Below are positions 858-29,023 of a DNA stretch of 32,000 nt, piece after piece. Below the pieces are notes generated by a model that ran no database searches, was not told where the DNA came from, and saw only the letters and a program-made list of their open reading frames with translations. This DNA is from Geotalea daltonii FRC-32. GTDB lineage: Bacteria > Desulfobacterota > Desulfuromonadia > Geobacterales > Geobacteraceae. Location of the stretch: assembly GCF_000022265.1 (NCBI RefSeq), contig NC_011979.1, positions 1,020,001 through 1,052,000 on the forward strand. The letters are read 5' to 3'. The position numbers and the translations under genes were made by a program. Each line of letters opens with the position of its first letter. Position 1 is the stretch's first letter.

Positions 858-1192
858 TACCTGTCCAATTCCCGGCACAGTGCATTGAATGCATCTTCTC
901 CGTCTAATATCCTGATTATCCTGACGCCCATGCCGCTCTTCTTCACCAGTCGCAGCATGTTTGCCGGTACCTTCTTTGCCCACATGACGCGGGCTTCCAT
1001 CCTGACAAGGGTCGTCTCATCGATGGCCAGATCCACTTTTACATCGCTTCCCGGCGAAGCGACGTTTGCTGTTTTGATGAAAAGGCCGTGATGGGAGATA
1101 TCTTCAGTAAAGGCAATGCGGTCGGTCTGCAGCAGCCCGAATTTCACAGACAGCCTTTTCCGCAGCCTTTTTATTCTTCGCTTGTCAGCCAT
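854..1192 (-). CDS. PilZ domain protein (c-di-GMP receptor)
   Basis: 112-aa ORF with an ATG start. It has RxxxR (RRIKR / RLRKR) near the N-terminus and DxSxxG (DISHHG), the two PilZ c-di-GMP-binding motifs. Confidence 0.8.
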   Translation of the reverse strand: MADKRRIKRLRKRLSVKFGLLQTDRIAFTEDISHHGLFIKTANVASPGSDVKVDLAIDETTLVRMEARVMWAKKVPANMLRLVKKSGMGVRIIRILDGEDAFNALCRELDRY

Positions 1193-5253: not shown

Positions 5254-5255
5254 CG

Positions 5256-5723
5256 TTAGGAGAGGAGCGCCTTCAGCTCGGCAAGATATTTCCCCGCAAG
5301 GGAAGTCCCGTCTTCCGGAGCCCAGGGGGCTTTTTCCCCTTCGGCCAAAGGGCGGTACGGGCCGGCTTTCGCCTCAAAGAAGATTGTTCCCGGCTCCAGG
5401 CTCACTGCCGTATGAAATACGCCGTGGGGAATGTCGGCAATGACGGTCCCGCTTTCCGTGCTGAGAACAGAGCTCTGCAGAACCTTACCGTCGTTGGCGA
5501 AGATGATGATGCCGAGCTTGCCCCTGAGGATGACGAAGGACTCATCCTTGACCGGGTCAAGATGGCGATGGGGACGGATGTAAGAATCGGGCTCGATGGC
5601 GTTGAGCAGCCGATGACAGCAGAAATCGTCCGTCGGATGCAGGTTGTAGTTCTTTCTGAGCCTCGGGTTTGCCTGGGCTTCATGGGTCAGGCCGTCCAGC
5701 AAGTTTTTATCGATGATTTTCAC
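5256..5723 (-). CDS. WbuC-family cupin-fold metalloprotein
   Basis: IIDKNLLDGL..ANPRLRKNYNLH..RLLNAIEPDSYIRPHRH..ESFVILRG..IPHGVFHT..GTIFFEAKAGPY matches the WbuC cupin pattern. The track ORF extends to 5870, but that part overlaps the VOC gene. GTG at 5723 lies 5 nt after the VOC stop. Confidence 0.7.
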   Translation of the reverse strand: MKIIDKNLLDGLTHEAQANPRLRKNYNLHPTDDFCCHRLLNAIEPDSYIRPHRHLDPVKDESFVILRGKLGIIIFANDGKVLQSSVLSTESGTVIADIPHGVFHTAVSLEPGTIFFEAKAGPYRPLAEGEKAPWAPEDGTSLAGKYLAELKALLS

Positions 5724-10809: not shown

Positions 10810-11104
10810 AACCGTCCGCCATGCCATTATCGCCCTCCTGGAGAAAAATGAGCTGACAGCCCGGGAGATTTCCGAGCAGACCGGCATCGGCGAAAAGGAT
10901 GTCTACGACCATCTGGAGCATATACAGCTGCACAGGCAGAATCTGCATCTGGCCGTGACACCTGCTGTCTGCCGCAAGTGCGGATTTGTCTTCAGAAAAA
11001 GAGAGCGCCTGAAGAAGCCGGGGCGTTGCCCGGTCTGTCGCGGAGAATTCATCGACCCACCATCCTTTTTCATCCAGAGTGGCTCTGGTGCCGGTTCCTG
11101 TTAA
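10796..11104 (+). CDS. HTH domain fused to a Zn-ribbon (COG3357-type predicted transcriptional regulator)
   Basis: 102 aa. The N-terminal part (TVRHAIIALLEKNELTAREISEQTGIGEKDVYDHLEHI) looks winged-helix. The C-terminal part has CRKCG..N15..CPVC (four-Cys ribbon). The GTG start overlaps the upstream gene by 14 nt. Confidence 0.7.
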   Translation: MEQHETVRHAIIALLEKNELTAREISEQTGIGEKDVYDHLEHIQLHRQNLHLAVTPAVCRKCGFVFRKRERLKKPGRCPVCRGEFIDPPSFFIQSGSGAGSC

Positions 11105-11109
11105 TCGTG

Positions 11110-11139
11110 TTGACATGCTGCCGCACAACAGTGTATTGA
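11110..11139 (+). promoter_or_regulatory. Candidate sigma70 promoter for the diguanylate cyclase gene
   Basis: TTGACA (11110..11115), 18-nt spacer, TATTGA (11134..11139). Confidence 0.3.
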
Positions 11140-11168
11140 ATCTGTGCATATGTTAATCATGGCAGGAG

Positions 11169-12416
11169 ATGACACTGGTGACGGTTGCCGCACTGAAAAA
11201 GCTTACTATTTTAGCCCCTTCCGTCATTCTTCTTGTCATGGCCTACCTGGCGATTCCCCATATTGCGGCCCTGCCTCCTCCGCAGCATGAGCTTGCCCTG
11301 CTTTCCCCTTATCTGTTCATTGCCACCGGCCTGATACTCAGTTTCGCCTTCAGCAGGGGGCGGGCCTTTTTCGTGCTGCTGCTCCTGGCCGGCTTTTACT
11401 GGTTCTTTCGCACCTATCTCCAGCATGGGCTCTCAGACTTTCTTCCCCGTGTCGTCTTCCAGTTTCTCTGCCTGCTTATTCCTCTCAATATCACCATCTT
11501 CTGCCATGTGAGGGAACGGGGGGTCTTCACCCTTTCGGGAAGGATGCGCTTTGCGTTTCTTGCCATGCAGCTGGCAGCGGTCGCCTGGATCATCAGATAC
11601 CGTGAAGACTACGGCCAGGTGCCGCTATTTTTCTCTCGCCCATTTCTGGACATCCCCTTTATTTCTGACTCCCCGGTTCCACAGGTTGCATGGCTGGTTG
11701 CCATCATCGGCTTTGTCCTGGTCCTGTACCGGGTCGTGATCCACAAATCCCCCATCGACAGCGGTTTGCTTGGCGCACTGGTTGCGGTCTTCATTGCCTT
11801 CAACACTCTGACCGTTGGCGATTTCCCCCTGGTTTTCATTGCCGCTGCAGCGTTTATCCTTGCGGTGAGCGTTCTTCAGGATTCCCACAACATGGCTTTC
11901 CGTGACGATCTTACCGGGCTTCCCTCCCGTCGCGCCCTGAACGAGCAAATGCTGTCCATGGGGCGGCAGTACACGATTGCCATGCTTGATGTGGATCACT
12001 TCAAGATCTTCAATGACACCCATGGCCATGATGTGGGGGATCAGGTGCTGAAGATGGTGGCGAAAAAAATTGGTGCGGTGAAGGGGGGAGGACGGCCTTT
12101 CCGCTATGGTGGCGAAGAATTCACCATTGTCTTTCCCCGCCGGAAAATGGGCGATGCCATCCCTTTTCTCGAAGATGTGCGCAGTGCCATCAGCGCCTAC
12201 GAGCTGTCGATCCGCAGCAAGGACCGCCCCAAGAAGGCAGAGGAAGGAAAAAAGAAACGCAATGCCGGCCATGGCGACAAAACGGTCTCGGTTACCATCA
12301 GCATCGGCGTAGCAGAGAGCAGCGACAGCCTGCGCCTGCCGGACGATGTGATAAAGGCCGCAGACAAAGCCCTCTACCGGGCAAAGAGCAAGGGGCGCAA
12401 CCAGGTGAGCAGGTAA
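11169..12416 (+). CDS. Membrane-anchored diguanylate cyclase (GGDEF domain, GGEEF active site)
   Basis: About 230 aa of N-terminal polytopic membrane domain, then DDLTGLPSRRAL..DVDHFKIFNDTHGHDVGDQVL..RYGGEEFTIVF..SIGVA..ADKALYRAKSKGRN. AGGAG abuts ATG 11169, so in-frame GTG 11178 (9-nt spacing) is an alternative start. Confidence 0.9.
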   Translation: MTLVTVAALKKLTILAPSVILLVMAYLAIPHIAALPPPQHELALLSPYLFIATGLILSFAFSRGRAFFVLLLLAGFYWFFRTYLQHGLSDFLPRVVFQFLCLLIPLNITIFCHVRERGVFTLSGRMRFAFLAMQLAAVAWIIRYREDYGQVPLFFSRPFLDIPFISDSPVPQVAWLVAIIGFVLVLYRVVIHKSPIDSGLLGALVAVFIAFNTLTVGDFPLVFIAAAAFILAVSVLQDSHNMAFRDDLTGLPSRRALNEQMLSMGRQYTIAMLDVDHFKIFNDTHGHDVGDQVLKMVAKKIGAVKGGGRPFRYGGEEFTIVFPRRKMGDAIPFLEDVRSAISAYELSIRSKDRPKKAEEGKKKRNAGHGDKTVSVTISIGVAESSDSLRLPDDVIKAADKALYRAKSKGRNQVSR

Positions 12417-15389: not shown

Positions 15390-16436
15390 TTACCCGGGTG
15401 GGGATGTCTTGCGACGTTTGAGAAAAAAAACGATCACCACGGAAAATGCCAGTGTGATCAGGGTGCCCACAAGACCGGCAATGCTGGTACCAGCCTTACG
15501 GTCGATCTTCTCTGTTTCACCGGTTGCCGAAGGCTTTATTTTCTGTTCTGCAGACTTGCCGAAGGAGTAATCACGGAGCAGGGCGGTCTTGTCCTGAATT
15601 CGGGCCAGTGCCCCGTGAAGCCCCAGGTTCGGCCCCGCAAGCTCTTCCTTGCCCGTTACCTTGAAAATGGCCCATTCCAGGCCGTCAGGATTTTTTGAAG
15701 CGAACCAGGAGAGGACGCCGGCGGCTATGATGGCCACTGCCATGAAAGCCAGCAGAATATCACGTAGCGGATGATTGCCTGCAGGTTGCCCACTGAAGGC
15801 ATTCTCGAGGATTTCCGGTCGGACCTTGTAAATGAATGACACCACTGCCAGGGTGACGAATCCTTCGACAATGCCTATGGCCAGATGAATGGGCTGCATC
15901 AGCAGCACGAAAGTGGGAAACGGCAGGACTGAAATGCCTGAAAAAAAAGTTTCCAGCACCACTGCAAGGGACCCCAGCTGTAGACAGGCAATGGCGGCAA
16001 TCATGGTGGCCATTGTCATGGGATAACGCCCGGGATTGGGGCCGAGGATCTTCTTGTAGATGAGGGGGTATGCAATAAAGGCGGGGAAGAAGCCTATATT
16101 GAAGATGTTGCAGCCGAGAGCCAGCAATCCTCCGTCGGCAAAGAACAGGGCTTGGACCACGAGGACTGAGGCAATGGAGAGGAATGCCCCATGGGGTCCC
16201 AGAAGGATCGATAGCAAAAGCCCACCCCCCAGGTGACCACTGGATCCGGTTCCCGGAATGGTGAAGTTGATCATCTGCGCTGCAAAGAGAAAGGCGCCGA
16301 GCACCCCCATGAGCGGCACATTGCGATCATCGAGCCTGTTGCGCACTTTTGCCGAACAGTAGGCGATGGTGATGACCGATGCCCCCCACATGGTTCCACC
16401 GACAGCCGGAGACAGTAATGCGTCCGCCATATGCAT
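15390..16436 (-). CDS. ECF-type Ni/Co uptake substrate-capture component: CbiM/NikM fused to a PDGLE (NikN-like) C-terminal domain
   Basis: The CbiM/NikM core (MHMADALLSP.., FTIPGTGSSGHLGGG.., ALFFADGGLLALGCNIFN..) is followed by ..NPDGLEWA.. and a terminal TM helix. I place the start at ATG 16436 so the protein begins MH.., as required for the N-terminal metal-binding site of this family. GGGGAAG SD 8 nt upstream. The track ORF extends to 16559. Confidence 0.85.
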   Translation of the reverse strand: MHMADALLSPAVGGTMWGASVITIAYCSAKVRNRLDDRNVPLMGVLGAFLFAAQMINFTIPGTGSSGHLGGGLLLSILLGPHGAFLSIASVLVVQALFFADGGLLALGCNIFNIGFFPAFIAYPLIYKKILGPNPGRYPMTMATMIAAIACLQLGSLAVVLETFFSGISVLPFPTFVLLMQPIHLAIGIVEGFVTLAVVSFIYKVRPEILENAFSGQPAGNHPLRDILLAFMAVAIIAAGVLSWFASKNPDGLEWAIFKVTGKEELAGPNLGLHGALARIQDKTALLRDYSFGKSAEQKIKPSATGETEKIDRKAGTSIAGLVGTLITLAFSVVIVFFLKRRKTSPPG

Positions 16437-16595
16437 AGAGAGATCTTCCCCTGTGGCACGAATATTCCTGGTTTCAATCCGGAAAGGGTTCTTTTCTGCC
16501 CTGGCGGCGTCAATCTGCGGGCTTACTTGTGCGACGTACCGATGTACGTCTCCGCGCAAGCCCTTGATTTCCTTGCCAGAACAAAAAATCCCCTC

Positions 16596-16738: not shown

Positions 16739-16767
16739 TTGACCACAGACTTGGGATTTGCAATAGT
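16739..16767 (+). promoter_or_regulatory. Candidate sigma70 promoter for the Sel1-repeat gene
   Basis: TTGACC (16739..16744), 17-nt spacer, AATAGT (16762..16767); about 35 nt upstream of ATG 16802. Confidence 0.3.
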
Positions 16768-16801
16768 TACAAAAAATTCATTCAAGCTGTGGAGGGCTGA
16801 A

Positions 16802-17986
16802 ATGGTACGCCACAAGAACATAGTCGCCTTGTCAATTCTTTTCTGTATTGTTTCTGCAACGGCTGCCCGCGCCGATTACGAATCAGGGCTTCGTGCCTAT
16901 AATGATGGTGATTTCGCCACGGCCATGCGTGAGTTCAGGACGGACGGGAGCCCCAAGGCATTGTATCAGATCGGCCTCATGTATGCGGAAGGGAAAGGGG
17001 TAAGAAAACCGAACCCAACCGAAGGGATGAAGTGGTATCGCAAGGCTGCGGACCAGGGTTTCGTGAAGGCCCAGTATGCCCTTGGCCTCTTGTATGCACT
17101 GGGGGAGGGCACCCTGACCAACCGGAAGGAGGCAGCCAGGTGGTACCGCAAGGCTGCAGATCAGGGACATGTGACGGCCCAATACAACCTGGCCCAGATG
17201 TACAGCCGTGGCGACGGCGTCAAACAGGACGAAGCTGAAGCTTTCAAGTGGTATCGCAAGGCCGCAGAGCAGGGGCATGGCACAGCCCAGTTGACAATTG
17301 CCCAGCTTTATGACAAGGGGCTGGGTGTGGCGCCGGATAAAAAAGAGGCTGCCCGCTGGTATCTGAAGGCGGCCGAGCAGGGGAAGCCTGCTGCCCAGTT
17401 TGCCGTCGCCACCATGTATGAAAAGGGGGAAGGGGTCGAAGCCGACAAAAAGGAGGCGCTGAAGTGGTTCCGCCGTGCCGCTGAACAGAAGCACGCCAAG
17501 GCCCAGTTCAAGGTCGGTTTTTACTATGACAGGGATGACAGTGGTGCCGAAGGTAAAAAGGAGGCGGTCAAATGGTACCGCCGGGCCGCCGAAAGTGGTG
17601 TTTCCGAAGCCCAGTTCAATTTAGGCATTCTTTATTATTACGGCAGGGGGATAGAACGTAACAAAAAAGAAGCTGTGAAATGGTTCCGCAAGGCCGCCGG
17701 CCAAGGGGACTCCGATGCCCAGTTTAATCTGGGTCACATGTACGACCAGGGGGATGGTATCAAACAGGACTGGAAGGAAGCAGTCAAATGGTACCGCAAA
17801 TCAGCCGACCAGGGCTTCGATCAAGCCCAGTTCAGTCTTGGCCTCATGTACTTCCATGGCCATGGGGTGAAGCAGAACAGGAGGGAGGCCATCAAGTGGT
17901 TCGTCAAGGCTGCGGAACAGGGTTCCGAAGAAGCGATAAGGACCCTGGAAGCCTTGGGCAGGCATGCTCCGTTGCAGGCGCACTGA
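16802..17986 (+). CDS. Secreted Sel1-like (SLR/TPR-type) repeat protein
   Basis: ATG 16802 is preceded by GGAGGG. Signal peptide MVRHKNIVALSILFCIVSATAARA-DY. Repeated consensus ..AQ..LG.MY..G.GV..D..EA.KWYRKAA.QG.. The track ORF starts at an upstream TTG (16739) that I do not favour. Confidence 0.85.
   Translation: MVRHKNIVALSILFCIVSATAARADYESGLRAYNDGDFATAMREFRTDGSPKALYQIGLMYAEGKGVRKPNPTEGMKWYRKAADQGFVKAQYALGLLYALGEGTLTNRKEAARWYRKAADQGHVTAQYNLAQMYSRGDGVKQDEAEAFKWYRKAAEQGHGTAQLTIAQLYDKGLGVAPDKKEAARWYLKAAEQGKPAAQFAVATMYEKGEGVEADKKEALKWFRRAAEQKHAKAQFKVGFYYDRDDSGAEGKKEAVKWYRRAAESGVSEAQFNLGILYYYGRGIERNKKEAVKWFRKAAGQGDSDAQFNLGHMYDQGDGIKQDWKEAVKWYRKSADQGFDQAQFSLGLMYFHGHGVKQNRREAIKWFVKAAEQGSEEAIRTLEALGRHAPLQAH
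16955..17926 (+). repeat. Nine head-to-tail 108-nt (36-codon) Sel1 coding repeats with no register breaks
   Basis: Residues K52 to S375 of the protein divide into exactly 9 x 36 aa units, each ending ..KW(Y/F)RKAA(E/D)QG. Confidence 0.8.
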
Positions 17987-18031: not shown

Positions 18032-21000
18032 TCATTCACCCAGCACCCCCATTACCCAGTCCAGGTTGACCCTGGCCACCAGATAGTCCCGTTTCGCCCG
18101 TGAAAAGTTGCTTTTGGCCTGCAGCAGGTTCAGTTCGGCATCCTCCACCTCCAGGCGGATCTTTACCCCAAGCTCATACCCCTTTTCCGCCATGGTCAGC
18201 AGCCTTTCTGCCTGCTTTACCGTCCCCGACAGGGCGTTTACGATCTCTTCCGATTCGGCCAGGGCATTGACCGCATTTCGCGCATCCAGGGCGATGGCAT
18301 CCAGCTGCTTTGCCTCGTCGATCTTGAGACTTCTGACGGTTGATTCGGCCTGAGCCGTCTTGCCGCTGGTGCGAAAGCCGTCGAAGAAGGGGAAGCTCAG
18401 GTAGATCCCCGCACTCCAGGCAAACCCGTCCGCCTTGTTATCTCCAATCTCCAGCTGCTTCCAGCCATAGCTTCCCTTCAGATCCAGTCGAGGCTTGTTG
18501 TCGGCTGCTGCAACATTTACCAGTTCCTCGTACATCCCCAGACGGTGGCGCAAATCGGCCAACTCCGGCCTCTTTTTTTCGGCAACGGCGATAGCTTCCT
18601 CATACGTGGCATGGGGCGTTATTGCCGCATCAAGGGCGCCGCTGACCTCAATCTCATGGTCCAGGGCAAGCAGGTAGCGGAGTTCCTGGCTGGCGGTGCG
18701 GATCTGGTTTTCCGTGCGGATCACCTCCGGGCGGGCATTGTCGACGGTCACACCAGCAGCGAGCACATCGTATTCGGTGGCAATCCCTTCAGTGTATTTT
18801 TTGCGGGTTTCATCCAGGTGACGTTTTTTCTGTTCCAGGTTCTGCGATGCAAAGGCGTTCAGTTCCCGGGCGAGAAGGACGTTATAGAAGGTGACGGAAA
18901 CGTCACGGGCTGCTGCTTGACGGTAGAGGCGCAATTGATCGTCTGCGGTCTTGAGGCCGATTTTTGCGGCGCGGATGGCAGCTCCCACTTTGCCCCAGGA
19001 GAAGAGCACCTGGGAGGCGCTCAACTCGGCGCTTCGCCTGTCCTGTGATCCCGAGACGCCGAAGAAGGCGCTCTGGCTGTCGTCCCAGTCACGGGCGACG
19101 GTGCCGTTCAGGGAAAGCTGCGGCAGGGCTGCTGCCCGCTCCTCCACATACCGCCCTTCCACCTGTTTAAAGTACTCACGGGCCTTCTCCAGGTCCCGGT
19201 TCTTTTCCGCCGCAATCTGCAGGGCCTGCTCCAGGGTCAGCGTCTGCACCTCCGCGTTGGCTCGGGACACAAGGACCATCGAGCCGCAGAGCAGGCAGAG
19301 CGCACCGATCAGTCCCCTGAAAAACCTTCTGCCGGGAAGCAGCCTGATTACTTTGCCGGCTCCTCTACGGGCCTCTCCTGCCGGCGGGGCTCCGGCGTCC
19401 GAATTCTGCCCATGCTCTTTGTTCCACTTCCGCTTCAGCCATGCCCCCAAGTCGTCGACAACGGTATAGACCACCGGCACCACCAGCAGGGTCAGAAGAC
19501 TTGAGGTCAGCAGACCGCCGATGACGGTGCGAGCCATGGGAGCACGCCCCTCGGCGCCGGAGCCTATGGCGAAGAAGAGGGGGAGCATGCCGAAGATCAT
19601 GGCCAGGGTGGTCATGGCGATGGGGCGCAGTCTCGTCCGTCCCGCTTCGATCACCGCCTGCCGCCGCGGCATGCCATCCCGTCGCTGCAGGACTTTGGCA
19701 TAATCCACCAGCAGAATAGCGTTCTTCGTCACCAGCCCCATGAGCATGATCAGGCCGATCAGAGACATGATGTTGACGGTGTCGCCGGTCAGTTTCAACA
19801 TGCCGGCCACGCCGACAATGGAGAGGGGCAGCGAAAGCATGATGGCCAGCGGCTCCAGGAACGACTCGAACTGGGCGGCAAGGATCAGATAGACGAAAAG
19901 CACCGCCAAAAGCAACGATTCTCCCATGTAGCCGAATGATTCAGCCATGTCTTCCGCCTCCCCGGAAAAATTTACTGAGTATCCAGGGGGCATCCGGATG
20001 TTGCTGGCTGCCGCTTCCACTTTTTTTACCGCCGTGCCGATGGGGAGATTGTCCAGATTGGCGCTGACGGTCACTTGGCGCGACAGGTCACGGCGGTTGA
20101 TTTCGCTGGGGGTCGCTGCCACCTCGTAGCTGGTGATCGCTGACATCGGCACCAGCTTGGTGCTGCCGGCTCCGTCGGGGACGGAAATTTTCAGGTCTCG
20201 TACCTGCCCCGGGTTCTGCCGCAGGTTTTCAGGCAGCCTTACCCGCACGTCGACGGCATCGCCGTCCTCATCTTCATAGGTGGTGATTGCTTCCCCCCCT
20301 ACCAGCCGGCCCAGGGAGGCGACGATGTCGTTGGTGGACACACCGGCGGACAGTGCCCGCTCCCGGTCCACCCGCAGGCGGTACTCGGGGATGTCGTGTT
20401 CCAGGGTTGCCGAGATATCGACGATCCCGGGAATCTTGTACATCTCCTCCTTCAGTTTGGCCGCCAGTCCCTTGAGGACGGCGATATCTTCCCCTTTGAG
20501 ATTGGCATTGAGCGGCTTGCCGCTCCCCATGCTGCCGACGATCTCGATGGAGAAGGTGATGCCGGGAATCTGCCGGAGGCGTTCCCGCACCACCTGCTGA
20601 ATCTCCTGCTGTTTCCGCGTGCGCTCCTGTTTTTCCTTGAGTTTTACGTAAACGAGCCCATCCCGGACCGTGCCGCTGTCGCCGGCGCCGATGGTGGCAT
20701 AGGTATGGTCTATTTCCGGGATGTTCTTCATCCGGTCAAGGACCAGGCCGAGGCGGTTTTCCGTCTCGGCCATGCTGGCATCGGGGGCTGTCTTGAAGGA
20801 AACCTGGAATTCTCCGTTGTCTTCAGTGGCCATGAAAGAGGATTCCAGGGTGGCAAAGATGGCCAGTCCCGCGATAAAGGCGGCGAAGGCCGAGGCCATG
20901 ACTGTTTTACGGTGATCGAGAGCCCAGCCGATGGCGCTTCGATACTTGTCTGCGGTATAGTCGAACCAGTCGTTGAAGGTTTCCAGCAATTTTGCCAATC

Positions 21001-22501
21001 CTTTCCGATGACCACGGGCTGTAATGGCGGGATCGTGCCAGCGGGAGGAGAGCATGGGGTCAAGGGTGAAGGAGACGAACAGCGATACCAGCACCGCAAA
21101 GGAGACGGTGATGCCGAAAGGGAAGAAAAAGCGGCCTACGATCCCCTTCATGAAGGCAACGGGCACGAAGACGGCCACCACCGACATGGTGGTGGCGAAG
21201 ACCGCCAGGCCGATCTCGGCGGTGCCGAAGCGGGAGGCCTCCATGTGGTCCTTGCCGTGCTCCAGGTGCCGGACGATATTTTCCCGGACGACGATGGCAT
21301 CGTCGATCAGCAGGCCGATGGCCAGCGACAAGGCCATGAGGGTCATGACATTGAGGGTCATTCCCATGGCGTTCATGACGATGAAGGAGGAGATGACCGA
21401 GATGGGGAGGGTGACGCCGGTAATGACCGTCGAACGCCAGGAGTTGATGAAACAGAAGACGATGACGATGGTGAGAATACCGCCAATGAGAAGTGTCTCC
21501 TGCACGTCAGCCAGGGAGTCCCGGGTCATGATGGAGCCATCGCGGACCATGGACAGCCTCACTCCCGGCGGCAGGTCTTTTTCAACCTTGCCCATGATCT
21601 TCTTGATGTTGTCCACCACCTGGACCTGATTTGCCCCAGATTGCTTGTAAATATCCAGGCCGATGGCGGGAATGCCGTTGATCAGCGCCAGCCGCCGTTT
21701 CTCTTCGACCCCGTCGCCGACGGCAGCCACTTCTGCAAGGGTTACCGGCCTGCCGTTACTGCGGGCGATGACCATTTGCCGATAATCGTCGGCCCGTTCC
21801 GGCTTTCCTTCCATGCGCAGGGGGTATTCGGCGCCGCCGCGGGTCAACCGTCCCAGGGGCGTGTTGGTGTTTTCGCTCCGCAGTCCGTCCACCACATCGT
21901 TGACCCCCAGCCCCACCGCATCCAGGCGGGCCGGGTCGATCTCCACGTTGACCTCACGTTTCTGTCCCCCGATCATGTCAACCTTGCCGACGCCGGCAAT
22001 GCTCTCGAAGCGCTTCTTGACTCTCTTTTCCACCAGTACAGTCAGTTCCCGCGGGAGCAGCGTTTCCGACTGTACCGCAAGGGCCGCTACCGGCATGGCA
22101 TTGAAGTCCAGCTTCTGGATGATCGGCTCTTCCGTGGCTGTGGGCAGGTCGCCGCGGATGGAAGTAATCTTCGCCCGCGCTTCCTGGGCCACGTCGTTCA
22201 GCTGCTCTTCCAGCCTGAACTCGACCACAACCGTGGAAACGCTTTCACGGGAGAAGGACATGACGTGCTTCACCCCAGCCACCTGGTTCACCGCTTCCTC
22301 GATCCGCTTGGAGACCTCCCGTTCCACTGTTTCCGGCGAAGCTCCGGGAAACTTGGTGACGATTGAGATGACCGGTATCTCCACGTTGGGATACATTTCC
22401 ACCGACAGCCGGCGGTAGGAAAAGATTCCCAGCACCACCAGGGCCAACATCATCACCGCTGCGAAGACCGGCCGTTTTATGGACAGTTCTGAAAGTACCA
22501 T
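18032..22501 (-). CDS. RND (AcrB/HAE1-type) efflux permease fused in frame to a TolC-type outer-membrane factor
   Basis: Single uninterrupted 1489-codon ORF. Residues 1 to about 1027 are a full 12-TM RND permease (MVLSELSIKRPVFAAV.., TM4 LLIDDAIVVRENI). Residues 1084..1489 are a full-length OMF with two OEP repeats (EVQTLTLEQALQIAAEKNRDLEKAR...). ATG 22501 is 3 nt after the MFP stop. Confidence 0.85.
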   Translation of the reverse strand: MVLSELSIKRPVFAAVMMLALVVLGIFSYRRLSVEMYPNVEIPVISIVTKFPGASPETVEREVSKRIEEAVNQVAGVKHVMSFSRESVSTVVVEFRLEEQLNDVAQEARAKITSIRGDLPTATEEPIIQKLDFNAMPVAALAVQSETLLPRELTVLVEKRVKKRFESIAGVGKVDMIGGQKREVNVEIDPARLDAVGLGVNDVVDGLRSENTNTPLGRLTRGGAEYPLRMEGKPERADDYRQMVIARSNGRPVTLAEVAAVGDGVEEKRRLALINGIPAIGLDIYKQSGANQVQVVDNIKKIMGKVEKDLPPGVRLSMVRDGSIMTRDSLADVQETLLIGGILTIVIVFCFINSWRSTVITGVTLPISVISSFIVMNAMGMTLNVMTLMALSLAIGLLIDDAIVVRENIVRHLEHGKDHMEASRFGTAEIGLAVFATTMSVVAVFVPVAFMKGIVGRFFFPFGITVSFAVLVSLFVSFTLDPMLSSRWHDPAITARGHRKGLAKLLETFNDWFDYTADKYRSAIGWALDHRKTVMASAFAAFIAGLAIFATLESSFMATEDNGEFQVSFKTAPDASMAETENRLGLVLDRMKNIPEIDHTYATIGAGDSGTVRDGLVYVKLKEKQERTRKQQEIQQVVRERLRQIPGITFSIEIVGSMGSGKPLNANLKGEDIAVLKGLAAKLKEEMYKIPGIVDISATLEHDIPEYRLRVDRERALSAGVSTNDIVASLGRLVGGEAITTYEDEDGDAVDVRVRLPENLRQNPGQVRDLKISVPDGAGSTKLVPMSAITSYEVAATPSEINRRDLSRQVTVSANLDNLPIGTAVKKVEAAASNIRMPPGYSVNFSGEAEDMAESFGYMGESLLLAVLFVYLILAAQFESFLEPLAIMLSLPLSIVGVAGMLKLTGDTVNIMSLIGLIMLMGLVTKNAILLVDYAKVLQRRDGMPRRQAVIEAGRTRLRPIAMTTLAMIFGMLPLFFAIGSGAEGRAPMARTVIGGLLTSSLLTLLVVPVVYTVVDDLGAWLKRKWNKEHGQNSDAGAPPAGEARRGAGKVIRLLPGRRFFRGLIGALCLLCGSMVLVSRANAEVQTLTLEQALQIAAEKNRDLEKAREYFKQVEGRYVEERAAALPQLSLNGTVARDWDDSQSAFFGVSGSQDRRSAELSASQVLFSWGKVGAAIRAAKIGLKTADDQLRLYRQAAARDVSVTFYNVLLARELNAFASQNLEQKKRHLDETRKKYTEGIATEYDVLAAGVTVDNARPEVIRTENQIRTASQELRYLLALDHEIEVSGALDAAITPHATYEEAIAVAEKKRPELADLRHRLGMYEELVNVAAADNKPRLDLKGSYGWKQLEIGDNKADGFAWSAGIYLSFPFFDGFRTSGKTAQAESTVRSLKIDEAKQLDAIALDARNAVNALAESEEIVNALSGTVKQAERLLTMAEKGYELGVKIRLEVEDAELNLLQAKSNFSRAKRDYLVARVNLDWVMGVLGE
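19253..19330 (-). other. Internal signal-peptide-like segment at the RND/OMF junction
   Basis: Residues 1058..1083 are RRFFRG-LIGALCLLCGSMVLV-SRANA, followed by EVQ. This is a positive n-region, a hydrophobic core and an AxA-type (ANA) signal peptidase I motif. It is preceded by a Gly/Ala/Pro-rich linker (residues about 1028..1057). Confidence 0.5.
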
Positions 22502-22504
22502 GGT

Positions 22505-23662
22505 CTATTTCCCTCCGGCTGCGGCGAAGGCTACCCGGTCCCCATCCTTGAGGTTGAAGCTGCCGCGGTTCACATAGCGTTCGCCCGTTTTCAGCCCTGC
22601 CGTTATTTCCACCATCTCGCCGCTGACCGTGCCGATCTGCAGCTGGCGGCGTCTTGCCTGGTCTTTCTCCACCACGAACAGGGTCGCCTTCTTTGCCGTC
22701 AGGTCAAGCCCGCTCAGAATTCCGCGGGGAACCTGCAAGACGTTTTTCCTGACGCCGCAGATGATTTTTCCCTTGGCAAACAGTCCCCCCTTAAGGATTT
22801 CCGGCTCGTTGACCACTTCGGCGACCACTTTGAGGGAGCGGTCGGCAGCCTGGACCTCAGGGTTGATGAACATGATCCTTCCCTGGAAGGTCCTGCCGGG
22901 GACGCCGTCGGTGGTGAAAAGCAGCTTCTGTCCAACCTGCAGACGGGCCATTTCTGCCGACGGCACAGTAAATGTCAGGTTTAGCAGGCGGTTGTCGACG
23001 ATCTTGAAGATCGGCATGGCGGCAGCGGCGTCGCTGGCCAGATCGCCCACATTGACAGCGCGCAGGGCGACGGTGCCGTTGATGGGGGAGAAGACCATTC
23101 CCTTCGCCTGGCGCAGCTTCGCCTGGCGATGCTCCTCTTCGGCGACCCGGATACCGGCACGGCTCGCCTCGATGCGGGCGGCAGCGGCGGCAGCTTCCGT
23201 ATCCGCATCATCCACGGCCTGCTGGGTGGCGAGCCCCGCCTCTTTCAGCTTATTCACCCGTGCCAGCTCCCTGTCCGCCCGTTTTGCTGCTACCTCTGTC
23301 TGGGCCAGGTTTGCCCTGGCCGACTTGATGGCGGCCTCGGTCCGCTTGACGGTTGCTTCCGTTTCGGCCACGTCGATCCTTGCCAGGAGGGTCCCCTTCT
23401 TCACCCGCACCCATTCGGTGACATAAACCTGTTTCACCAGGCCTGGAATCTGGGTCTTTACCTCGGCGAAGAATTTTGGCTCCAGGGTGCCCGTTACTTC
23501 CACCCCTTCCTCAAGGTCGGCAGCGGCAGCAACGGCAACTTCCACGGCTACCGGCGGTTTGACAGTGCTTTCACCCTTGCCGGCAGCTGCTCCTCCGCTT
23601 TTCGAGCAGCCCATGGTTCCAGCCGCCAGGCATAGTACGCACAGCATCAGCAGTTGCTTCAT
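22505..23662 (-). CDS. RND efflux membrane fusion (periplasmic adaptor) lipoprotein
   Basis: 385 aa. Signal plus Cys (LAAGTMGCSK). HlyD/AcrA-type lipoyl, coiled-coil (alanine-rich heptads) and beta-barrel pattern. Confidence 0.9.
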   Translation of the reverse strand: MKQLLMLCVLCLAAGTMGCSKSGGAAAGKGESTVKPPVAVEVAVAAAADLEEGVEVTGTLEPKFFAEVKTQIPGLVKQVYVTEWVRVKKGTLLARIDVAETEATVKRTEAAIKSARANLAQTEVAAKRADRELARVNKLKEAGLATQQAVDDADTEAAAAAARIEASRAGIRVAEEEHRQAKLRQAKGMVFSPINGTVALRAVNVGDLASDAAAAMPIFKIVDNRLLNLTFTVPSAEMARLQVGQKLLFTTDGVPGRTFQGRIMFINPEVQAADRSLKVVAEVVNEPEILKGGLFAKGKIICGVRKNVLQVPRGILSGLDLTAKKATLFVVEKDQARRRQLQIGTVSGEMVEITAGLKTGERYVNRGSFNLKDGDRVAFAAAGGK

Positions 23663-23699: not shown

Positions 23700-24296
23700 T
23701 TATCCGGGCGTCATCAGCCCCTGCAACACCATGCCCAGCATGCGCTCCATCTGTCTACTGTCAATGCGGGGCGGGGTCTGGCACAGTTGTTCTTCCATGG
23801 TGGTATTGAGTATGGAGACGATGATCCAGGCAGTGTCCCTCGTGTCATTGGCCACAAACTCTCCTTGGGCAATTCCCTCCTTCACCAGAGCTTCGACAGT
23901 CGCGACAATTCTTGAGTAATAGTCTTCGAAGTCAATGGGGGGAGCCCCTTGTGGCGGACCATAATAAATGGCATAAATGAGGCGGAGAACTTCGAGCCGG
24001 TCGATGACCAGTACCAGGAGCAATGAGCAGAAATGGATGATTTTTGCAGCGGCAGTCCCGGAAATGGTGGTCATCCTGTCCAGGGATGCATCGAACTGGG
24101 CGAAGGAGCTGTTCATCAGCTCCAGGTATATGCCTTCCTTGCTGCCGAAGTAATAGTAGAGTACCGGTTTGGTGACGCCCGATGCCTCGACAATTTCACG
24201 TACCGACGTTGCAGCATAACCCTTGTTGTTGAAAAGCGTCAAAGCTGAAGCCAGAAGCTTTTCCCTGACGCCGTCCTGTTTCTGTTGTTCTGCCAT
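23700..24296 (-). CDS. TetR/AcrR-family transcriptional repressor
   Basis: N-terminal HTH LFNNKGYAATSVREIVEASGVTKPVLYYYFGSKEGIY. ATG 24296 is preceded by GAGG with 6-nt spacing. The track ORF starts at GTG 24302. Confidence 0.9.
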   Translation of the reverse strand: MAEQQKQDGVREKLLASALTLFNNKGYAATSVREIVEASGVTKPVLYYYFGSKEGIYLELMNSSFAQFDASLDRMTTISGTAAAKIIHFCSLLLVLVIDRLEVLRLIYAIYYGPPQGAPPIDFEDYYSRIVATVEALVKEGIAQGEFVANDTRDTAWIIVSILNTTMEEQLCQTPPRIDSRQMERMLGMVLQGLMTPG

Positions 24297-24314
24297 GGTC
24301 ACCTCGCGTCAAAC

Positions 24315-27791: not shown

Positions 27792-28124
27792 ATGCAATTT
27801 GCCGTCAAGCTTCTCCTGGCCAACCTGATTATCATCGCCTGCACCCAGATCGACAGGAAATTCCCCTCCCTGGGTGGACTCATTGCCACCATGCCGCTGA
27901 CGAGCTTGCTGGTTCTCCTCTGGCTCTACAGCGACAACCCCGGCGACTCCAGATTGATGACCGATTACACCAGGGGCGTTCTCTGGGGGGTCATCCCGAC
28001 CGTACTTTTCTTTGCCGTGGCCCTGGTTTGTTTCCGCCGCCAGTGGCCGCTGCCCCTCGTGCTTTCCGCTAGTTTCGCCGCCTGGCTGGCAGGGGCGGCA
28101 GTTCACCAGTGGCTGTTAAAATAG
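27792..28124 (+). CDS. DUF3147-like small integral membrane protein
   Basis: 110 aa with four hydrophobic segments. GGLIATMPLTSLLVLLWLY resembles DUF3147. Confidence 0.45.
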   Translation: MQFAVKLLLANLIIIACTQIDRKFPSLGGLIATMPLTSLLVLLWLYSDNPGDSRLMTDYTRGVLWGVIPTVLFFAVALVCFRRQWPLPLVLSASFAAWLAGAAVHQWLLK

Positions 28125-28135
28125 AAGGTTTCCAT

Positions 28136-29023
28136 ATGAAATATCTCTTCGCTGCATGTTTCATTCTTATTGCATGCTCCTGCTTCGCCGCCGAATCGGC
28201 TCCACGTTATGCAGTGGCCCAGCTGCCGACACCGGTGTTGAATACCCCCAATTTTGCCGCCGTTTTCGGTGGTCGTGACGGGCGCTCGCTCCAGACCGAC
28301 GACTGCGGACTGATCCGGGCCATGGAGTTCATCGCCCTGCCGGGAACGGCATTCACCATCGAGGAAGAGCTGACGCGGGGAAAGCTGCGCATCTTCAAGG
28401 TTACAACTGCCGATTACCCCTACCGCAGCAAAACAGGCTATTACATCGACCGCCGGTTCGTCCGCCTGACGGACAAAAAGCCCATAGAGCGCTCCCGCCG
28501 GCTGCCATCGCGCCAGGCCATCATCGACGACATGCTTGCCGCCAGGGGGAGCCGCTATGTCTGGGGAGGGAATATCCGCCTGGGCATAGACCAGATGCAC
28601 TCCTTTTTCAGCCCTGCAGGAACCATCAGTGCCGAAACAGCCGACCTCTGGCGGCTTAAGGGGGTGGATTGCTCCGGCCTTCTTTACCAGGCAACCAACG
28701 GTTTCACCCCCCGCAATACCAGCGAACTGGTCGGCTATGGCAGTCCGGTCCCCATCGCCGGAAAGGACATTGACCAAATCGCAAAGGAGGTCGAACCCCT
28801 TGACCTGATTGTCTGGTCGGGTCATGTCATAATTGTCCTGGACAGGGAAAGGACTATCGAAAGCCGCCTGGACTGCGGCGGTACCGGCGGAGGCGTGGTT
28901 GTTCGCCCGCTCCGCCAGGTGCTGGCTGGCATCATGAAAGCACGGACTGCCGTCAATGACTATGCCGAAGCAACAAAGCCAGGGAAGAAAGGCTTTGTTA
29001 TCAGGCGTTGGTATCAAAGTTAA
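28136..29023 (+). CDS. NlpC/P60 (C40) cell-wall peptidase with N-terminal SH3-like domain, exported
   Basis: ATG 28136 is preceded by GAAGG. Signal peptide MKYLFAACFILIACSCFAAES. Contains RYVWGGN, the catalytic Cys in GVDCSGLLYQ, and the His in LIVWSGHVIIVLD. Confidence 0.8.
   Translation: MKYLFAACFILIACSCFAAESAPRYAVAQLPTPVLNTPNFAAVFGGRDGRSLQTDDCGLIRAMEFIALPGTAFTIEEELTRGKLRIFKVTTADYPYRSKTGYYIDRRFVRLTDKKPIERSRRLPSRQAIIDDMLAARGSRYVWGGNIRLGIDQMHSFFSPAGTISAETADLWRLKGVDCSGLLYQATNGFTPRNTSELVGYGSPVPIAGKDIDQIAKEVEPLDLIVWSGHVIIVLDRERTIESRLDCGGTGGGVVVRPLRQVLAGIMKARTAVNDYAEATKPGKKGFVIRRWYQS

What the first reader, a model, noticed from the sequence alone, without database searches (positions are those of the whole stretch)
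18032..22501. In-frame fusion of an inner-membrane RND permease to a complete TolC-type outer-membrane factor via an internal signal-peptide-like linker
Tripartite RND pumps are normally encoded as separate MFP, RND and OMF genes, because the RND subunit stays in the inner membrane while the OMF must be exported and assembled in the outer membrane. Here one uninterrupted 4.47-kb ORF encodes both.
- RND part: residues 1 to about 1027 form a complete 12-TM AcrB-like permease. Its last helix should leave the C-terminus in the cytoplasm.
- Linker: residues about 1028..1057 (KEHGQNSDAGAPPAGEARRGAGKVIRLLPG) are low-complexity.
- Signal-like segment: residues 1058..1083 (RRFFRG-LIGALCLLCGSMVLV-SRANA|EVQ) have the n-h-c architecture and AxA cleavage motif of a Sec signal peptide.
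- OMF part: residues 1084..1489 (18032..19252) are a full 406-aa two-repeat OMF.

Purine-rich SD-like strings (AGGAGAGG, AGAGGAG; plus 19360..19379) survive in the linker. However, there is no ATG/GTG/TTG in frame until Met1075, inside the hydrophobic core. Independent initiation would therefore yield an OMF without an export signal.

The sequence thus predicts either a polyprotein in which a 13th TM/signal segment is cleaved by signal peptidase to release the OMF into the periplasm, or a recently fused or inactivated gene pair. A co-translationally produced 1:1 RND:OMF polyprotein would be a mechanistically novel route for stoichiometric assembly of a trans-envelope pump. I cannot tell from memory whether this fusion family has already been described.
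Basis: partly seen in the sequence, partly recalled or inferred. Interest (0 to 1): 0.75.

Follow-up and report, generated by a model that had tools for sequence, protein, structure and literature searches.

The report
RND pump fused to its TolC channel
One Geotalea daltonii gene encodes both the inner-membrane RND efflux pump and its TolC-like outer-membrane channel, joined by what looks like an internal cleavable signal peptide; the fusion is real, widespread and already flagged in genome annotations, but I found no study of it.

Summary
Window 18032..22501 (-) is one uninterrupted 1489-aa ORF: a full AcrB/MdtBC-type RND permease, a 30-aa disordered basic linker, a 26-aa n-h-c segment ending ANA|EVQ, and a complete TolC-type OMF. 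It is not an artefact or a recent accident. The exact protein is G. daltonii FRC-32 ACM19310.1, named 'efflux pump, RND family, inner and outer membrane proteins'. More than 115 cluster representatives (57-89 % identity) from several phyla are fused the same way, as are distant fusions at about 30 % identity. Every junction keeps a basic stretch, a short hydrophobic core and a small-residue cleavage motif, while its sequence drifts freely. Positional orthologues exist as split, translationally coupled gene pairs (mostly ATGA overlap with a strong SD) whose OMF has an ordinary N-terminal signal peptide. Fused loci have lost that start and SD. Best reading (about 0.75): a polyprotein whose 13th hydrophobic segment exports the OMF and is cut by signal peptidase I, giving a 118-kDa 13-helix RND and a 45-kDa OMF. 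Cleavage is inferred, not shown. I found no paper on it. Moderately interesting, and directly testable in G. sulfurreducens.

The parts
23700..24302 (-). TetR-family regulator, first gene of the operon
   Evidence: Pfam TetR_N E 1.9e-17. The same position is held in G. sulfurreducens and Geobacter sp. DSM 9736.
22505..23662 (-). Periplasmic adaptor (membrane fusion protein). Its stop lies 3 nt before the fused ORF's ATG.
   Evidence: Pfam HlyD_D23 E 4.4e-22 and HlyD_3; spacing read from the sequence.
22512..22516 (-). GGAGG Shine-Dalgarno for the fused ORF, 10 nt upstream of the ATG at 22501
   Evidence: Sequence CCGGAGGGAAATAGACCATG.
18032..22501 (-). Single 1489-aa ORF (162.8 kDa precursor): RND permease, linker, signal-like segment and OMF
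   Evidence: Identical to G. daltonii FRC-32 ACM19310.1 / WP_012646039.1 / B9M2D1.
19421..22501 (-). RND permease, residues 1-1027 (HAE1, MdtB/MdtC-like), 12 TM helices, C-terminus predicted cytoplasmic
   Evidence: ACR_tran 4-1015; NCBIfam RND_permease_2 E 2.1e-267; 12 hydrophobic peaks. TM4 DDAIV and TM10 TKN motifs are visible in the translation.
19331..19420 (-). Cytoplasmic linker, residues 1028-1057; low-complexity, basic at its end (KVIRLLPGRR...)
   Evidence: AF2 pLDDT <50 over residues 1027-1056. 7 non-synonymous versus 1 synonymous change against G. toluenoxydans, frame preserved. This long linker is specific to the P0001-P0006 clade; most relatives have about 10 aa here.
19253..19330 (-). 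Internal signal-peptide-like segment, residues 1058-1083: n RRFFR, h GLIGALCLLCGSMVLV, c SRANA; predicted 13th membrane-spanning segment (N-in, C-out)
   Evidence: 13th hydrophobic peak. K/R:D/E is 7:1 before the core and 1:3 after it. Lone helix 1058-1077 in the model. Homologous to the N-terminal signal peptide of the split OMF in Geobacter sp. DSM 9736. Family-wide statistics.
19250..19255 (-). Predicted signal peptidase I site ANA|EVQ, between residues 1083 and 1084
   Evidence: Best (-3,-1) site by a home-made score. It lies 4 residues before the position aligned with residue 1 of mature TolC. Cleavage is not shown experimentally.
18035..19252 (-). Complete TolC-type outer membrane factor, residues 1084-1489 (45.1 kDa if released)
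   Evidence: Two OEP repeats; TIGR01844 TolC family 1087-1487; end-to-end alignment with TolC chains; AF2 mean pLDDT 88 with full TolC topology; TM-score 0.72-0.79 to TolC structures.

Best explanation
The gene encodes a polyprotein precursor of two pump subunits. The ribosome makes one 163-kDa chain. The RND part inserts into the inner membrane as 12 helices and ends in the cytoplasm. The basic linker plus the hydrophobic segment 1058-1083 then act as an internal signal peptide. This segment inserts N-in/C-out as a 13th span and drives Sec-dependent translocation of the 406-aa OMF part into the periplasm, in the same way that the pump's own two large periplasmic loops are exported after TM1 and TM7. 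Signal peptidase I cuts after Ala1083 (ANA|EVQ). The products are a 118-kDa RND that keeps the 13th helix, and a free 45-kDa OMF that trimerises in the outer membrane and docks with the MFP encoded just upstream. In evolutionary terms this is what an ordinary translationally coupled RND-OMF gene pair becomes when the stop and start at their overlap are lost. The fusion is tolerated because the RND C-terminus is cytoplasmic, so the OMF's signal peptide keeps its correct orientation. Shown here: the fused ORF, its conservation, the junction anatomy, its homology to real signal peptides, and the loss of internal start signals. Inferred: the topology of segment 13, Sec export, cleavage and assembly.
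For: (1) Conservation. 115 of the 120 best cluster representatives are fused, 107 of them at 57-89 % identity over 99-100 % of the query and 8 matching only about 70 % of it in the best local alignment. They include G. sulfurreducens, C. bemidjiense, Geomonas, Acidobacteriota, Desulfobacteria, Nitrospirota and Verrucomicrobiota. The G. sulfurreducens protein occurs in 113 index blocks. Distant fusions at about 30 % identity also exist. (2) Junction anatomy. All 106 fused proteins parsed and the distant fusions show the same order: basic n-region, uncharged hydrophobic core, small-residue c-region, then the conserved OMF start LTL[ED]xA. (3) Signal-peptide behaviour. The hydrophobic run has a median of 14 aa, equal to the signal peptides of split orthologues (p = 0.27) and shorter than TM1 (16) and TM7 (19). 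An AxA-grade site follows in 83 % of fused proteins, against 0 % for TM1 and 50 % for TM7. Residue identity is not conserved: commonest-residue frequency is 0.36, against 0.85-0.97 for eleven of the twelve TM helices (TM7 is 0.60), yet hydrophobicity is always kept. (4) Homology to a real signal peptide. The positional orthologue in Geobacter sp. DSM 9736 has the same synteny (def-fmt-DUF116 | TetR-MFP-RND-OMF) but is split, and its OMF starts M..IVRKMRCRFRQITFFAGSLSVSLCLCGG..EAHA|AETRVLTLDQAL. (5) No independent initiation. Split loci have an ATG, in most cases with a strong SD and overlapping the RND stop as ATGA. 13 of 15 fused loci, including the window, have no SD-associated start before the core. 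(6) Cleavage position. ANA|EVQ lies 4 residues before the residue aligned with residue 1 of mature TolC. (7) Geometry. The model has a 24-residue H2 and a 68-residue H3. By TolC topology (Koronakis 2000, my knowledge) the OMF N-terminus therefore sits mid-barrel, roughly 65 A above the periplasmic tip. Only about 9 residues separate the hydrophobic core from the first structured OMF residue, so an uncleaved chain could not reach an outer-membrane-embedded OMF. (8) Orientation. K/R:D/E is 7:1 before the core and 1:3 after it, which fits the positive-inside rule.
Against: There is no experimental evidence for cleavage, export or expression in any organism. I found no proteomic or genetic study. 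SignalP and DeepTMHMM were not available. The cleavage score is home-made, picks the best site in a window, and is helped by Ala-rich composition; the TM7 control reaches the same grade in 50 % of cases. Natural cleavage of an internal signal peptide after a 12-TM protein is rare in bacteria. A retained 13th helix on an RND trimer has no structural precedent that I know of. Two fused loci (L015, L016) do have an SD plus GTG near the core, so internal initiation cannot be excluded everywhere.
Confidence: 0.75

Rival explanations
1. Uncleaved two-membrane protein. The chain stays intact, with segment 13 as a permanent anchor and the OMF domain tethered to the pump, working either as a non-canonical periplasmic or outer-membrane module or as a single polypeptide spanning both membranes.
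For: One ORF with no internal start. A few relatives have long spacers after the hydrophobic core (P0097 about 100 aa, P0063 and P0091 about 30 aa) that could act as tethers.
Against: Most family members, including the window, have only about 5-25 residues between the core and the first structured OMF residue. That is far too short to reach the mid-barrel N-terminus of an outer-membrane-inserted TolC-type protomer above a roughly 70 A RND periplasmic domain (established AcrAB-TolC geometry, my knowledge). The AxA-type motif is kept in 83 % of fused proteins with no other obvious reason. The segment has signal-peptide length (14 aa), not anchor length. Split orthologues release a free OMF.
Confidence: 0.08
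2. Two proteins by internal translation initiation. The OMF is made separately from a non-canonical or weak start in the linker (for example ATC1052 or CTG1054, downstream of the GAGGAG string), and the full-length product is a minor or irrelevant species.
For: SD-like strings AGGAGAGG and AGAGGAG lie in the linker. Rare start codons ATC1052 and CTG1054 follow them. L015 and L016 have an SD plus GTG near the core.
Against: There is no stop codon, so ribosomes translating the RND part read through into the OMF anyway. No ATG/GTG/TTG occurs before Met1075 in the window or before GTG1075 in G. toluenoxydans. 13 of 15 fused loci lack any SD-associated start, whereas split loci have an ATG, in most cases with a strong SD. 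Most fused proteins have no Met before the core. The scan found no promoter-like site near the junction on the coding strand.
Confidence: 0.05
3. The OMF is released by a different protease or pathway rather than signal peptidase I, for example lipoprotein signal peptidase at one of the Cys residues in LCLLCG, or a site-2 or rhomboid-type intramembrane cut.
For: The core contains two Cys (LCLLCGS). Some relatives have Cys-containing cores such as VSPCLRGG.
Against: No lipobox consensus ([LVI][ASTVI][GAS]C) is present in the window, and Cys is not conserved across the family. NodT-type lipoprotein OMF models score well below the TolC-type model. The conserved feature is the small-x-small motif after the core.
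Confidence: 0.07
4. Artefact or decaying gene: a sequencing or assembly frameshift, or a recent fusion that inactivated the pump.
For: The draft G. toluenoxydans assembly (L003) shows frameshifts in this gene and is annotated there as fragments, including a 'TolC family protein' of 494 aa.
Against: The G. daltonii genome is a finished 4.3-Mb contig. The junction is in frame in both G. toluenoxydans assemblies, and the second gives an intact 1489-aa protein. Hundreds of independent fused homologues have both halves highly conserved.
Confidence: 0.02

Closest known systems
Canonical tripartite RND pumps (AcrAB-TolC, MexAB-OprM, MdtABC-TolC)
   Same: The same three components and operon logic: TetR regulator, MFP, RND and OMF. 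The RND half is a full HAE1-type permease. The OMF half is a full TolC-type protomer.
   Different: Here the RND and OMF are one ORF with an internal signal-like module. A comprehensive 2021 review (PMC8277102, first 300,000 characters held) mentions no natural RND-OMF fusion.
Split positional orthologues, for example Geobacter sp. DSM 9736 RND (P0043, 1047 aa) plus a 469-aa OMF (L001)
   Same: 84 % identity over the RND half, the same synteny (def-fmt-DUF116 | TetR-MFP-...-RND-OMF), and an OMF signal peptide homologous to the window's internal segment.
   Different: These are two genes with an 8-nt overlap. The OMF has its own ATG and a GGAGG SD, and an extra SMR gene lies between the MFP and RND genes.
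FbcH cytochrome b/c1 precursor of Bradyrhizobium japonicum (Thony-Meyer, James & Hennecke, PNAS 88:5001, 1991)
   Same: From my own knowledge: a polytopic inner-membrane protein ending in the cytoplasm is followed in the same ORF by an internal signal peptide and an exported protein, and the two are separated by signal-peptidase-type cleavage. It is the closest known bacterial mechanism.
   Different: FbcH's exported part stays at the inner membrane or periplasm as a subunit of the same complex. Here the released part must cross the periplasm and assemble in the outer membrane. I could only verify that the paper exists; its text is not held.
Other fusions within the RND superfamily or pump field (SecDF of Thermus; engineered covalently linked AcrB trimers)
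   Same: They show that RND-superfamily subunits tolerate covalent linkage.
   Different: Those join parts that stay in the same membrane. None links an inner-membrane subunit to an outer-membrane one, and none needs an internal export signal.

Membership tests
RND permease, HAE1 type (AcrB/MdtB/MdtC-like) | Full-length ACR_tran domain | tested here: met
   PF00873 covers residues 4-1015, profile positions 2-1020 of 1021, E 2.8e-266. NCBIfam RND_permease_2 890 bits, MdtC and MdtB models about 582 bits; all are below the equivalog cut-offs, so it is a family member but not an orthologue of a named pump.
RND permease, HAE1 type (AcrB/MdtB/MdtC-like) | 12 TM helices with two large periplasmic loops after TM1 and TM7 | tested here: met
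   The hydrophobicity scan gives TM1 at 11-29, TM2-6 at 336-476, TM7 at 534-552 and TM8-12 at 863-1020. No dedicated topology predictor was available.
RND permease, HAE1 type (AcrB/MdtB/MdtC-like) | Proton-relay residues: Asp pair in TM4 and Lys in TM10 | tested here: met
   GLLIDDAIVVREN (TM4) and GLVTKNAILLVDY (TM10) are visible in the translation and nearly invariant in the family alignment. The equivalence to AcrB D407/D408/K940 rests on my own knowledge.
RND permease, HAE1 type (AcrB/MdtB/MdtC-like) | Adjacent membrane fusion protein gene | tested here: met
   HlyD_D23 protein at 22505-23662, ending 3 nt upstream.
Outer membrane factor, TolC type | Two OEP repeats forming a complete protomer (4 beta-strands, long coiled-coil helices, equatorial elements) | tested here: met
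   PF02321 in 2 stretches; TIGR01844 over 1087-1487; end-to-end alignment with TolC; AF2 topology strand-H1-H2-S1-S2-H3(68 aa)-H4, repeated, at pLDDT 88; TM-score 0.72-0.79.
Outer membrane factor, TolC type | Own N-terminal signal peptide on a separate polypeptide | tested here: not met
   The signal-like module is internal, at residues 1058-1083 of a 1489-aa chain, with no usable start before it.
Outer membrane factor, NodT/OprM lipoprotein type | Lipobox with an N-terminal acylated Cys | tested here: not met
   There is no lipobox consensus and Cys is not conserved. TIGR01845 scores 101.8 bits against a cut-off of 210.
Sec-type signal peptide cleaved by signal peptidase I | n-region with net positive charge | tested here: met
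   K/R:D/E is 7:1 in the 21 residues before the core. The n-region is basic in all fused relatives.
Sec-type signal peptide cleaved by signal peptidase I | Short hydrophobic h-region (about 7-15 aa) rather than an anchor of 20 aa or more | tested here: met
   The window core is GLIGALCLLCGSMVLV. The family median run is 14 aa, equal to the split-orthologue signal peptides (p = 0.27), against 16 for TM1 and 19 for TM7.
Sec-type signal peptide cleaved by signal peptidase I | c-region with small residues at -3 and -1 | tested here: met
   The window has ANA|E. At the best-scoring site of 114 fused proteins, A is at -1 in 107 and at -3 in 93. The score is home-made, not SignalP, and it selects the best site, so these frequencies are inflated.
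Sec-type signal peptide cleaved by signal peptidase I | Located at the N-terminus of the translated chain | tested here: not met
   It follows 1057 residues of RND and linker.
Sec-type signal peptide cleaved by signal peptidase I | Actual cleavage by LepB | not testable with these tools
   This needs N-terminal sequencing, proteomics or immunoblots.
Bacterial membrane polyprotein with an internal signal peptide (FbcH type) | A polytopic inner-membrane protein ending in the cytoplasm, followed in frame by a signal peptide and an exported protein | tested here: met
   12 TM helices (even number, N-in) followed by an n-h-c module and the OMF. AcrB's N-in/C-in topology is established knowledge.
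Bacterial membrane polyprotein with an internal signal peptide (FbcH type) | Two mature proteins demonstrated from one ORF | not testable with these tools
   I found no expression or processing data.

The most novel reading that the evidence does not exclude
The fusion is not a neutral accident but an assembly device. Co-translational 1:1 synthesis and cleavage at the pump's own C-terminus would deliver each OMF protomer next to the RND trimer that made it. That would enforce a dedicated, non-exchangeable channel. The retained 13th helix might also serve as a built-in accessory helix, comparable to the small protein AcrZ on AcrB. Under this reading, the repeated switching between fused and split forms would reflect selection on stoichiometry or partner fidelity rather than drift.
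Probability: 0.15. Interest if true: 0.75.

Novelty: new variant of a known kind. Interest (0 to 1): 0.55.

Why it matters
Tripartite pumps are described in textbooks as three separately encoded subunits. How the outer-membrane channel is recruited, and in what ratio, is still debated. This is a large natural family, found in several phyla and including the genetically tractable model organism Geobacter sulfurreducens, in which the inner-membrane motor and the outer-membrane channel are made as one chain. If the predicted cleavage is confirmed, it would be a second, far more widespread bacterial case of a membrane polyprotein resolved by signal peptidase at an internal signal peptide. It would also be the first case I know of whose products end up in two different membranes. 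The natural fused/split pairs of orthologues provide ready-made controls for asking whether covalent coupling affects pump stoichiometry, partner specificity or assembly. On the practical side, automatic annotation now labels these proteins only as 'efflux RND transporter permease subunit', so the OMF half is invisible in gene inventories. Genomes scored as lacking an OMF for a given pump may in fact carry one.

Tried and rejected
(1) Literature. Nine full-text searches and several in-paper searches found no description of a natural RND-OMF fusion. Searches for locus tags I guessed for G. sulfurreducens (GSU2662-2667) found nothing relevant. Subscription journals are not covered, so the absence is not proof. 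(2) The FbcH paper could not be read by DOI or PMC id; only its citation was verified. (3) My regex classification of loci missed several OMFs and mislabelled contig-end cases such as L043, so I replaced it with tblastn. That in turn mislabelled L003 as split, because the draft has a frameshift elsewhere in the gene. The junction itself is in frame. (4) A terminator-like hairpin at 19342-19329 (-) in the linker was dismissed: its stem is only 5 bp, and the regional count of such sites (10) is within the shuffled expectation of 7.4 +/- 3.0. (5) There are no Rfam families in the window and no promoter-like site on the coding strand near the junction. (6) A lipoprotein-type OMF was considered and rejected. 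(7) A structural role for segment 13 as a conserved pump helix was considered and judged unlikely from its lack of sequence conservation. An AcrZ-like role remains only speculation.
Full report
OBSERVATION. The window carries one uninterrupted ORF at 18032..22501 on the minus strand, 1489 codons plus a stop. Pfam finds a full-length ACR_tran domain over residues 4-1015 (E 2.8e-266) and two OEP stretches reaching residue 1481. NCBIfam places the first part among multidrug RND permeases, with MdtB and MdtC among the best-scoring named models, and the second part in the TolC family over residues 1087-1487. The linker is 1028-1057. RRFFRGLIGALCLLCGSMVLVSRANA is 1058-1083. EVQTLTL starts at residue 1084, nt 19252. 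The only in-frame ATG/GTG/TTG codons between residue 1019 and the OMF are Met1075 and GTG1078, both inside the hydrophobic core. A hydrophobicity scan shows the 12 AcrB-type helices plus a 13th peak at 1060-1078. The gene is the last in an operon of TetR (23700-24302), MFP (22505-23662) and the fused ORF. A GGAGG lies 10 nt before its ATG.

IT IS REAL AND WIDESPREAD. The exact protein is G. daltonii FRC-32 ACM19310.1 / B9M2D1, on a finished 4.3-Mb contig. Of the 120 best cluster representatives, 115 carry both domains at about 1460-1576 aa. Of these, 107 show 57-89 % identity over 99-100 % of the query. They come from Geobacter, Geomonas, Citrifermentans, Desulfuromonadaceae, Desulfobacteria, Acidobacteriota and Thermoanaerobaculia, Verrucomicrobiota and a Nitrospirota-like MAG. 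G. sulfurreducens PCA has the same TetR-MFP-fusion operon, and its protein is listed in 113 index blocks of independent assemblies. An exhaustive search at the 50 % representative level also finds full-length fusions at only 29-33 % identity: P0191, P0204-P0207, P0213, P0224, P0230, P0255, P0276 and P0277. In the sister species G. toluenoxydans the junction is colinear and in frame. A second assembly of that species gives an intact 1489-aa protein. A sequencing artefact or a recent inactivating fusion is therefore excluded.

THE JUNCTION IS A SIGNAL PEPTIDE IN EVERYTHING BUT POSITION. Across the 106 fused proteins parsed, and in the distant fusions, the junction has the same order of elements. 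TM12 ends in W[LIV][KR]R[KR]W. A basic stretch follows, then an uncharged hydrophobic core, then a small-residue c-region, and then the conserved OMF start LTL[ED]xA. I compared this segment with two internal controls. The positive control was the N-terminal signal peptides of split orthologues. The negative controls were the same proteins' N-in/C-out helices TM1 and TM7, which also precede large periplasmic domains. The median hydrophobic run is 14 aa for the junction and 14 aa for the real signal peptides (p = 0.27), against 16 for TM1 and 19 for TM7. An AxA-grade (-3,-1) site follows in 83 % of junctions, against 0 % for TM1 and 50 % for TM7. This score is home-made and selects the best site in a window, so it is supporting evidence only. 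Residue identity in the segment is the lowest in the protein: commonest-residue frequency is 0.36, against 0.85-0.97 for eleven of the twelve pump helices (TM7 is 0.60). Hydrophobicity is nevertheless kept in every member. Even at 90 % overall identity, the linker plus signal is only 50 % identical. That is how signal peptides evolve, not structural helices. Charges obey the positive-inside rule, with K/R:D/E of 7:1 before the core and 1:3 after it.

FUSED AND SPLIT FORMS ARE INTERCONVERTIBLE. A scan of species-representative genomes returned both forms of the same gene pair. About 15 loci are fused at the junction: L003-L007, L009-L016, L026 and L076, and probably L043. About 25 loci are split but adjacent. 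In Geobacter sp. DSM 9736 the synteny is the same as in the window (def-fmt-DUF116 diverging from TetR-MFP-...-RND-OMF), so this is a positional orthologue. There the RND ends in ...WLKRKWKRQAKLEVHEDTEPRRVSNA*. The OMF, overlapping by 8 nt, begins M..IVRKMRCRFRQITFFAGSLSVSLCLCGG..EAHA|AETRVLTLDQAL. That is clearly the counterpart of the window's KVIRLLPGRRFFRGLIGALCLLCGS..RANA|EVQTLTLEQAL. Split loci are classic translationally coupled pairs: the OMF ATG mostly overlaps the RND stop as ATGA, and a strong SD (often AGGAGG with a 7-nt spacer) lies inside the RND tail. In fused loci these signals are gone. 13 of 15, including the window, have no SD-associated start before the core, and most fused proteins have no Met there. 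In the sister pair L031 (split...KKVVTT* plus MKKLYYRVFILIL...) and P0016 (fused...KKVVKGSAIALVFITILL...), the RND's own basic tail has taken over as the n-region. L008 is a near-intermediate...RGV*SMKYTLIHIVVLILMC..., with one in-frame stop and an ATG two codons later. On an NJ tree of 164 RND halves, fused and split tips interleave within one clade, and Fitch parsimony needs at least 14 state changes. The tree has no support values and the sample is biased towards fused sequences, so this number is only indicative.

THE OMF HALF IS COMPLETE AND STARTS WHERE MATURE TolC STARTS. The C-terminal 432 residues align end to end with TolC chains. The conserved LTLEQAL aligns with the first residues of mature TolC, so that query residue 35 matches 1EK9 residue 5. 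ANA|EVQ would therefore leave an N-terminus about 4 residues longer than TolC's. An AlphaFold2 model of residues 1021-1489 has mean pLDDT 88. It shows a disordered linker (1027-1056, pLDDT <50), a lone helix at 1058-1077, a break, and then the full TolC topology twice over, with long helices of 68 and 70 residues and four long strands. Foldseek gives TM-scores of 0.72-0.79 to TolC structures.

MECHANISM. The best-supported model (about 0.75) is a polyprotein. AcrB-type permeases begin and end in the cytoplasm (established from AcrB structures). A following signal peptide therefore has the normal N-in orientation and can insert as a 13th span. Export of the 406-aa OMF would use the same Sec route that already exports the pump's two large periplasmic loops. 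Signal peptidase I would cut after Ala1083, giving a 117.8-kDa RND that retains helix 13 and a 45.1-kDa OMF. The geometry argues that cleavage is obligatory for a canonical pump. By TolC topology the OMF N-terminus sits mid-barrel; the model's H2 is 24 residues and its H3 is 68. Only about 9 residues separate the hydrophobic core from the first structured residue. An uncleaved chain would have to bridge well over 100 A. Shown here: the ORF, its conservation, the junction anatomy, its homology to real signal peptides, and the loss of internal start signals. Inferred: topology, export, cleavage and assembly.

RIVALS. The rivals are an uncleaved tethered protein (0.08), independent internal initiation (0.05), release by another protease or the lipoprotein pathway (0.07) and artefact or pseudogene (0.02). 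The evidence for and against each is given in the rival entries.

COMPARISON WITH WHAT IS KNOWN. The parts are ordinary members of the RND-HAE1 and TolC-type OMF families, and the membership tests were met. The exception is that the OMF lacks its own N-terminal start and the signal module is internal. The arrangement has been noticed by annotators. The curated Geobacter annotations call it 'efflux pump, RND family, inner and outer membrane proteins' in G. daltonii, G. sulfurreducens and C. bemidjiense, whereas current automatic names say only 'efflux RND transporter permease subunit'. I found no paper that describes or tests it, including the 2021 Chem Rev review of tripartite pumps, of which the first 300,000 characters are held. 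The closest mechanistic precedent is the B. japonicum FbcH cytochrome b/c1 precursor (Thony-Meyer et al. 1991). Its citation was verified, but the content rests on my own knowledge because the text is not held.

VERDICT. Novelty is 'new variant of a known kind': known components, a known type of processing, and an architecture already visible in databases but apparently unstudied. Interest is 0.55. The finding is moderately surprising to a pump specialist, is not an open-question breaker, and is unusually easy to test because natural fused and split orthologue pairs exist and G. sulfurreducens is genetically tractable.

Noticed in passing
L003 (G. toluenoxydans JCM 15764 draft), about 6129 and about 7601: The draft assembly has frameshifts inside the RND part and near the OMF end of this gene. 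The gene is annotated there as fragments (P0121, a 'TolC family protein' of 494 aa, and P0123 of 535 aa). A second assembly gives an intact 1489-aa protein (P0122). These are probably draft sequencing errors that hide the fusion.
   Followed up: partly
L008: 6150-6450: The RND and OMF are in the same frame, separated by a single stop with an ATG two codons later (...WLKRKWSGPSSAVRGV*SMKYTLIHIVVLILMC...). One point mutation would turn this into a fusion.
   Followed up: partly
L001: 5390-5701 (Geobacter sp. DSM 9736): A small multidrug resistance (SMR, PF00893) gene sits between the MFP and RND genes of the split orthologous operon. The window has no counterpart.
   Followed up: no
L019, L024; proteins P0007, P0008: Several relatives, both split and fused, have a Cys-containing motif (VSPCLRGG / VSPCLSGGCS) in or just after the signal core. 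It is not a canonical lipobox, and I did not examine what it means.
   Followed up: no
window 19329-19342 (-): A small hairpin followed by a T-run (CTGCTTCCCGGCAG AAGGTTTTTC) lies in the linker just before the signal-like segment. The stem is only 5 bp and such sites are not enriched over shuffles, so it is probably chance.
   Followed up: partly
window 15390-16559 (-): Another fusion-type gene lies nearby: a CbiM cobalt-uptake transmembrane domain joined to a PDGLE domain in one 389-aa ORF. A Sel1-repeat protein (16739-17986, +) lies between it and the pump operon.
   Followed up: no
window 11001-12000 and ORF 11169-12416 (+): This stretch has a strong AT skew (-0.316), the most extreme in the window. 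It falls inside a GGDEF protein whose GGDEF domain matches Pfam in two separate stretches (243-355 and 369-413).
   Followed up: no
window 28103-29023 and 4633-5259: Two pairs of almost exactly mirrored ORFs lie on opposite strands (304/304 aa and 206/207 aa). Neither 304-aa ORF has a Pfam hit, and of the other pair only the minus-strand ORF has a weak SH3_3 hit. Which strand is coding was not resolved.
   Followed up: no
proteins P0191, P0204-P0207, P0213, P0224, P0230, P0255, P0276, P0277: Full-length RND-OMF fusions at only about 30 % identity to the window protein, some with a Bacteroidota-like sequence style, have the same n-h-c junction. They suggest further, possibly independent, fusion lineages.
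   Followed up: partly
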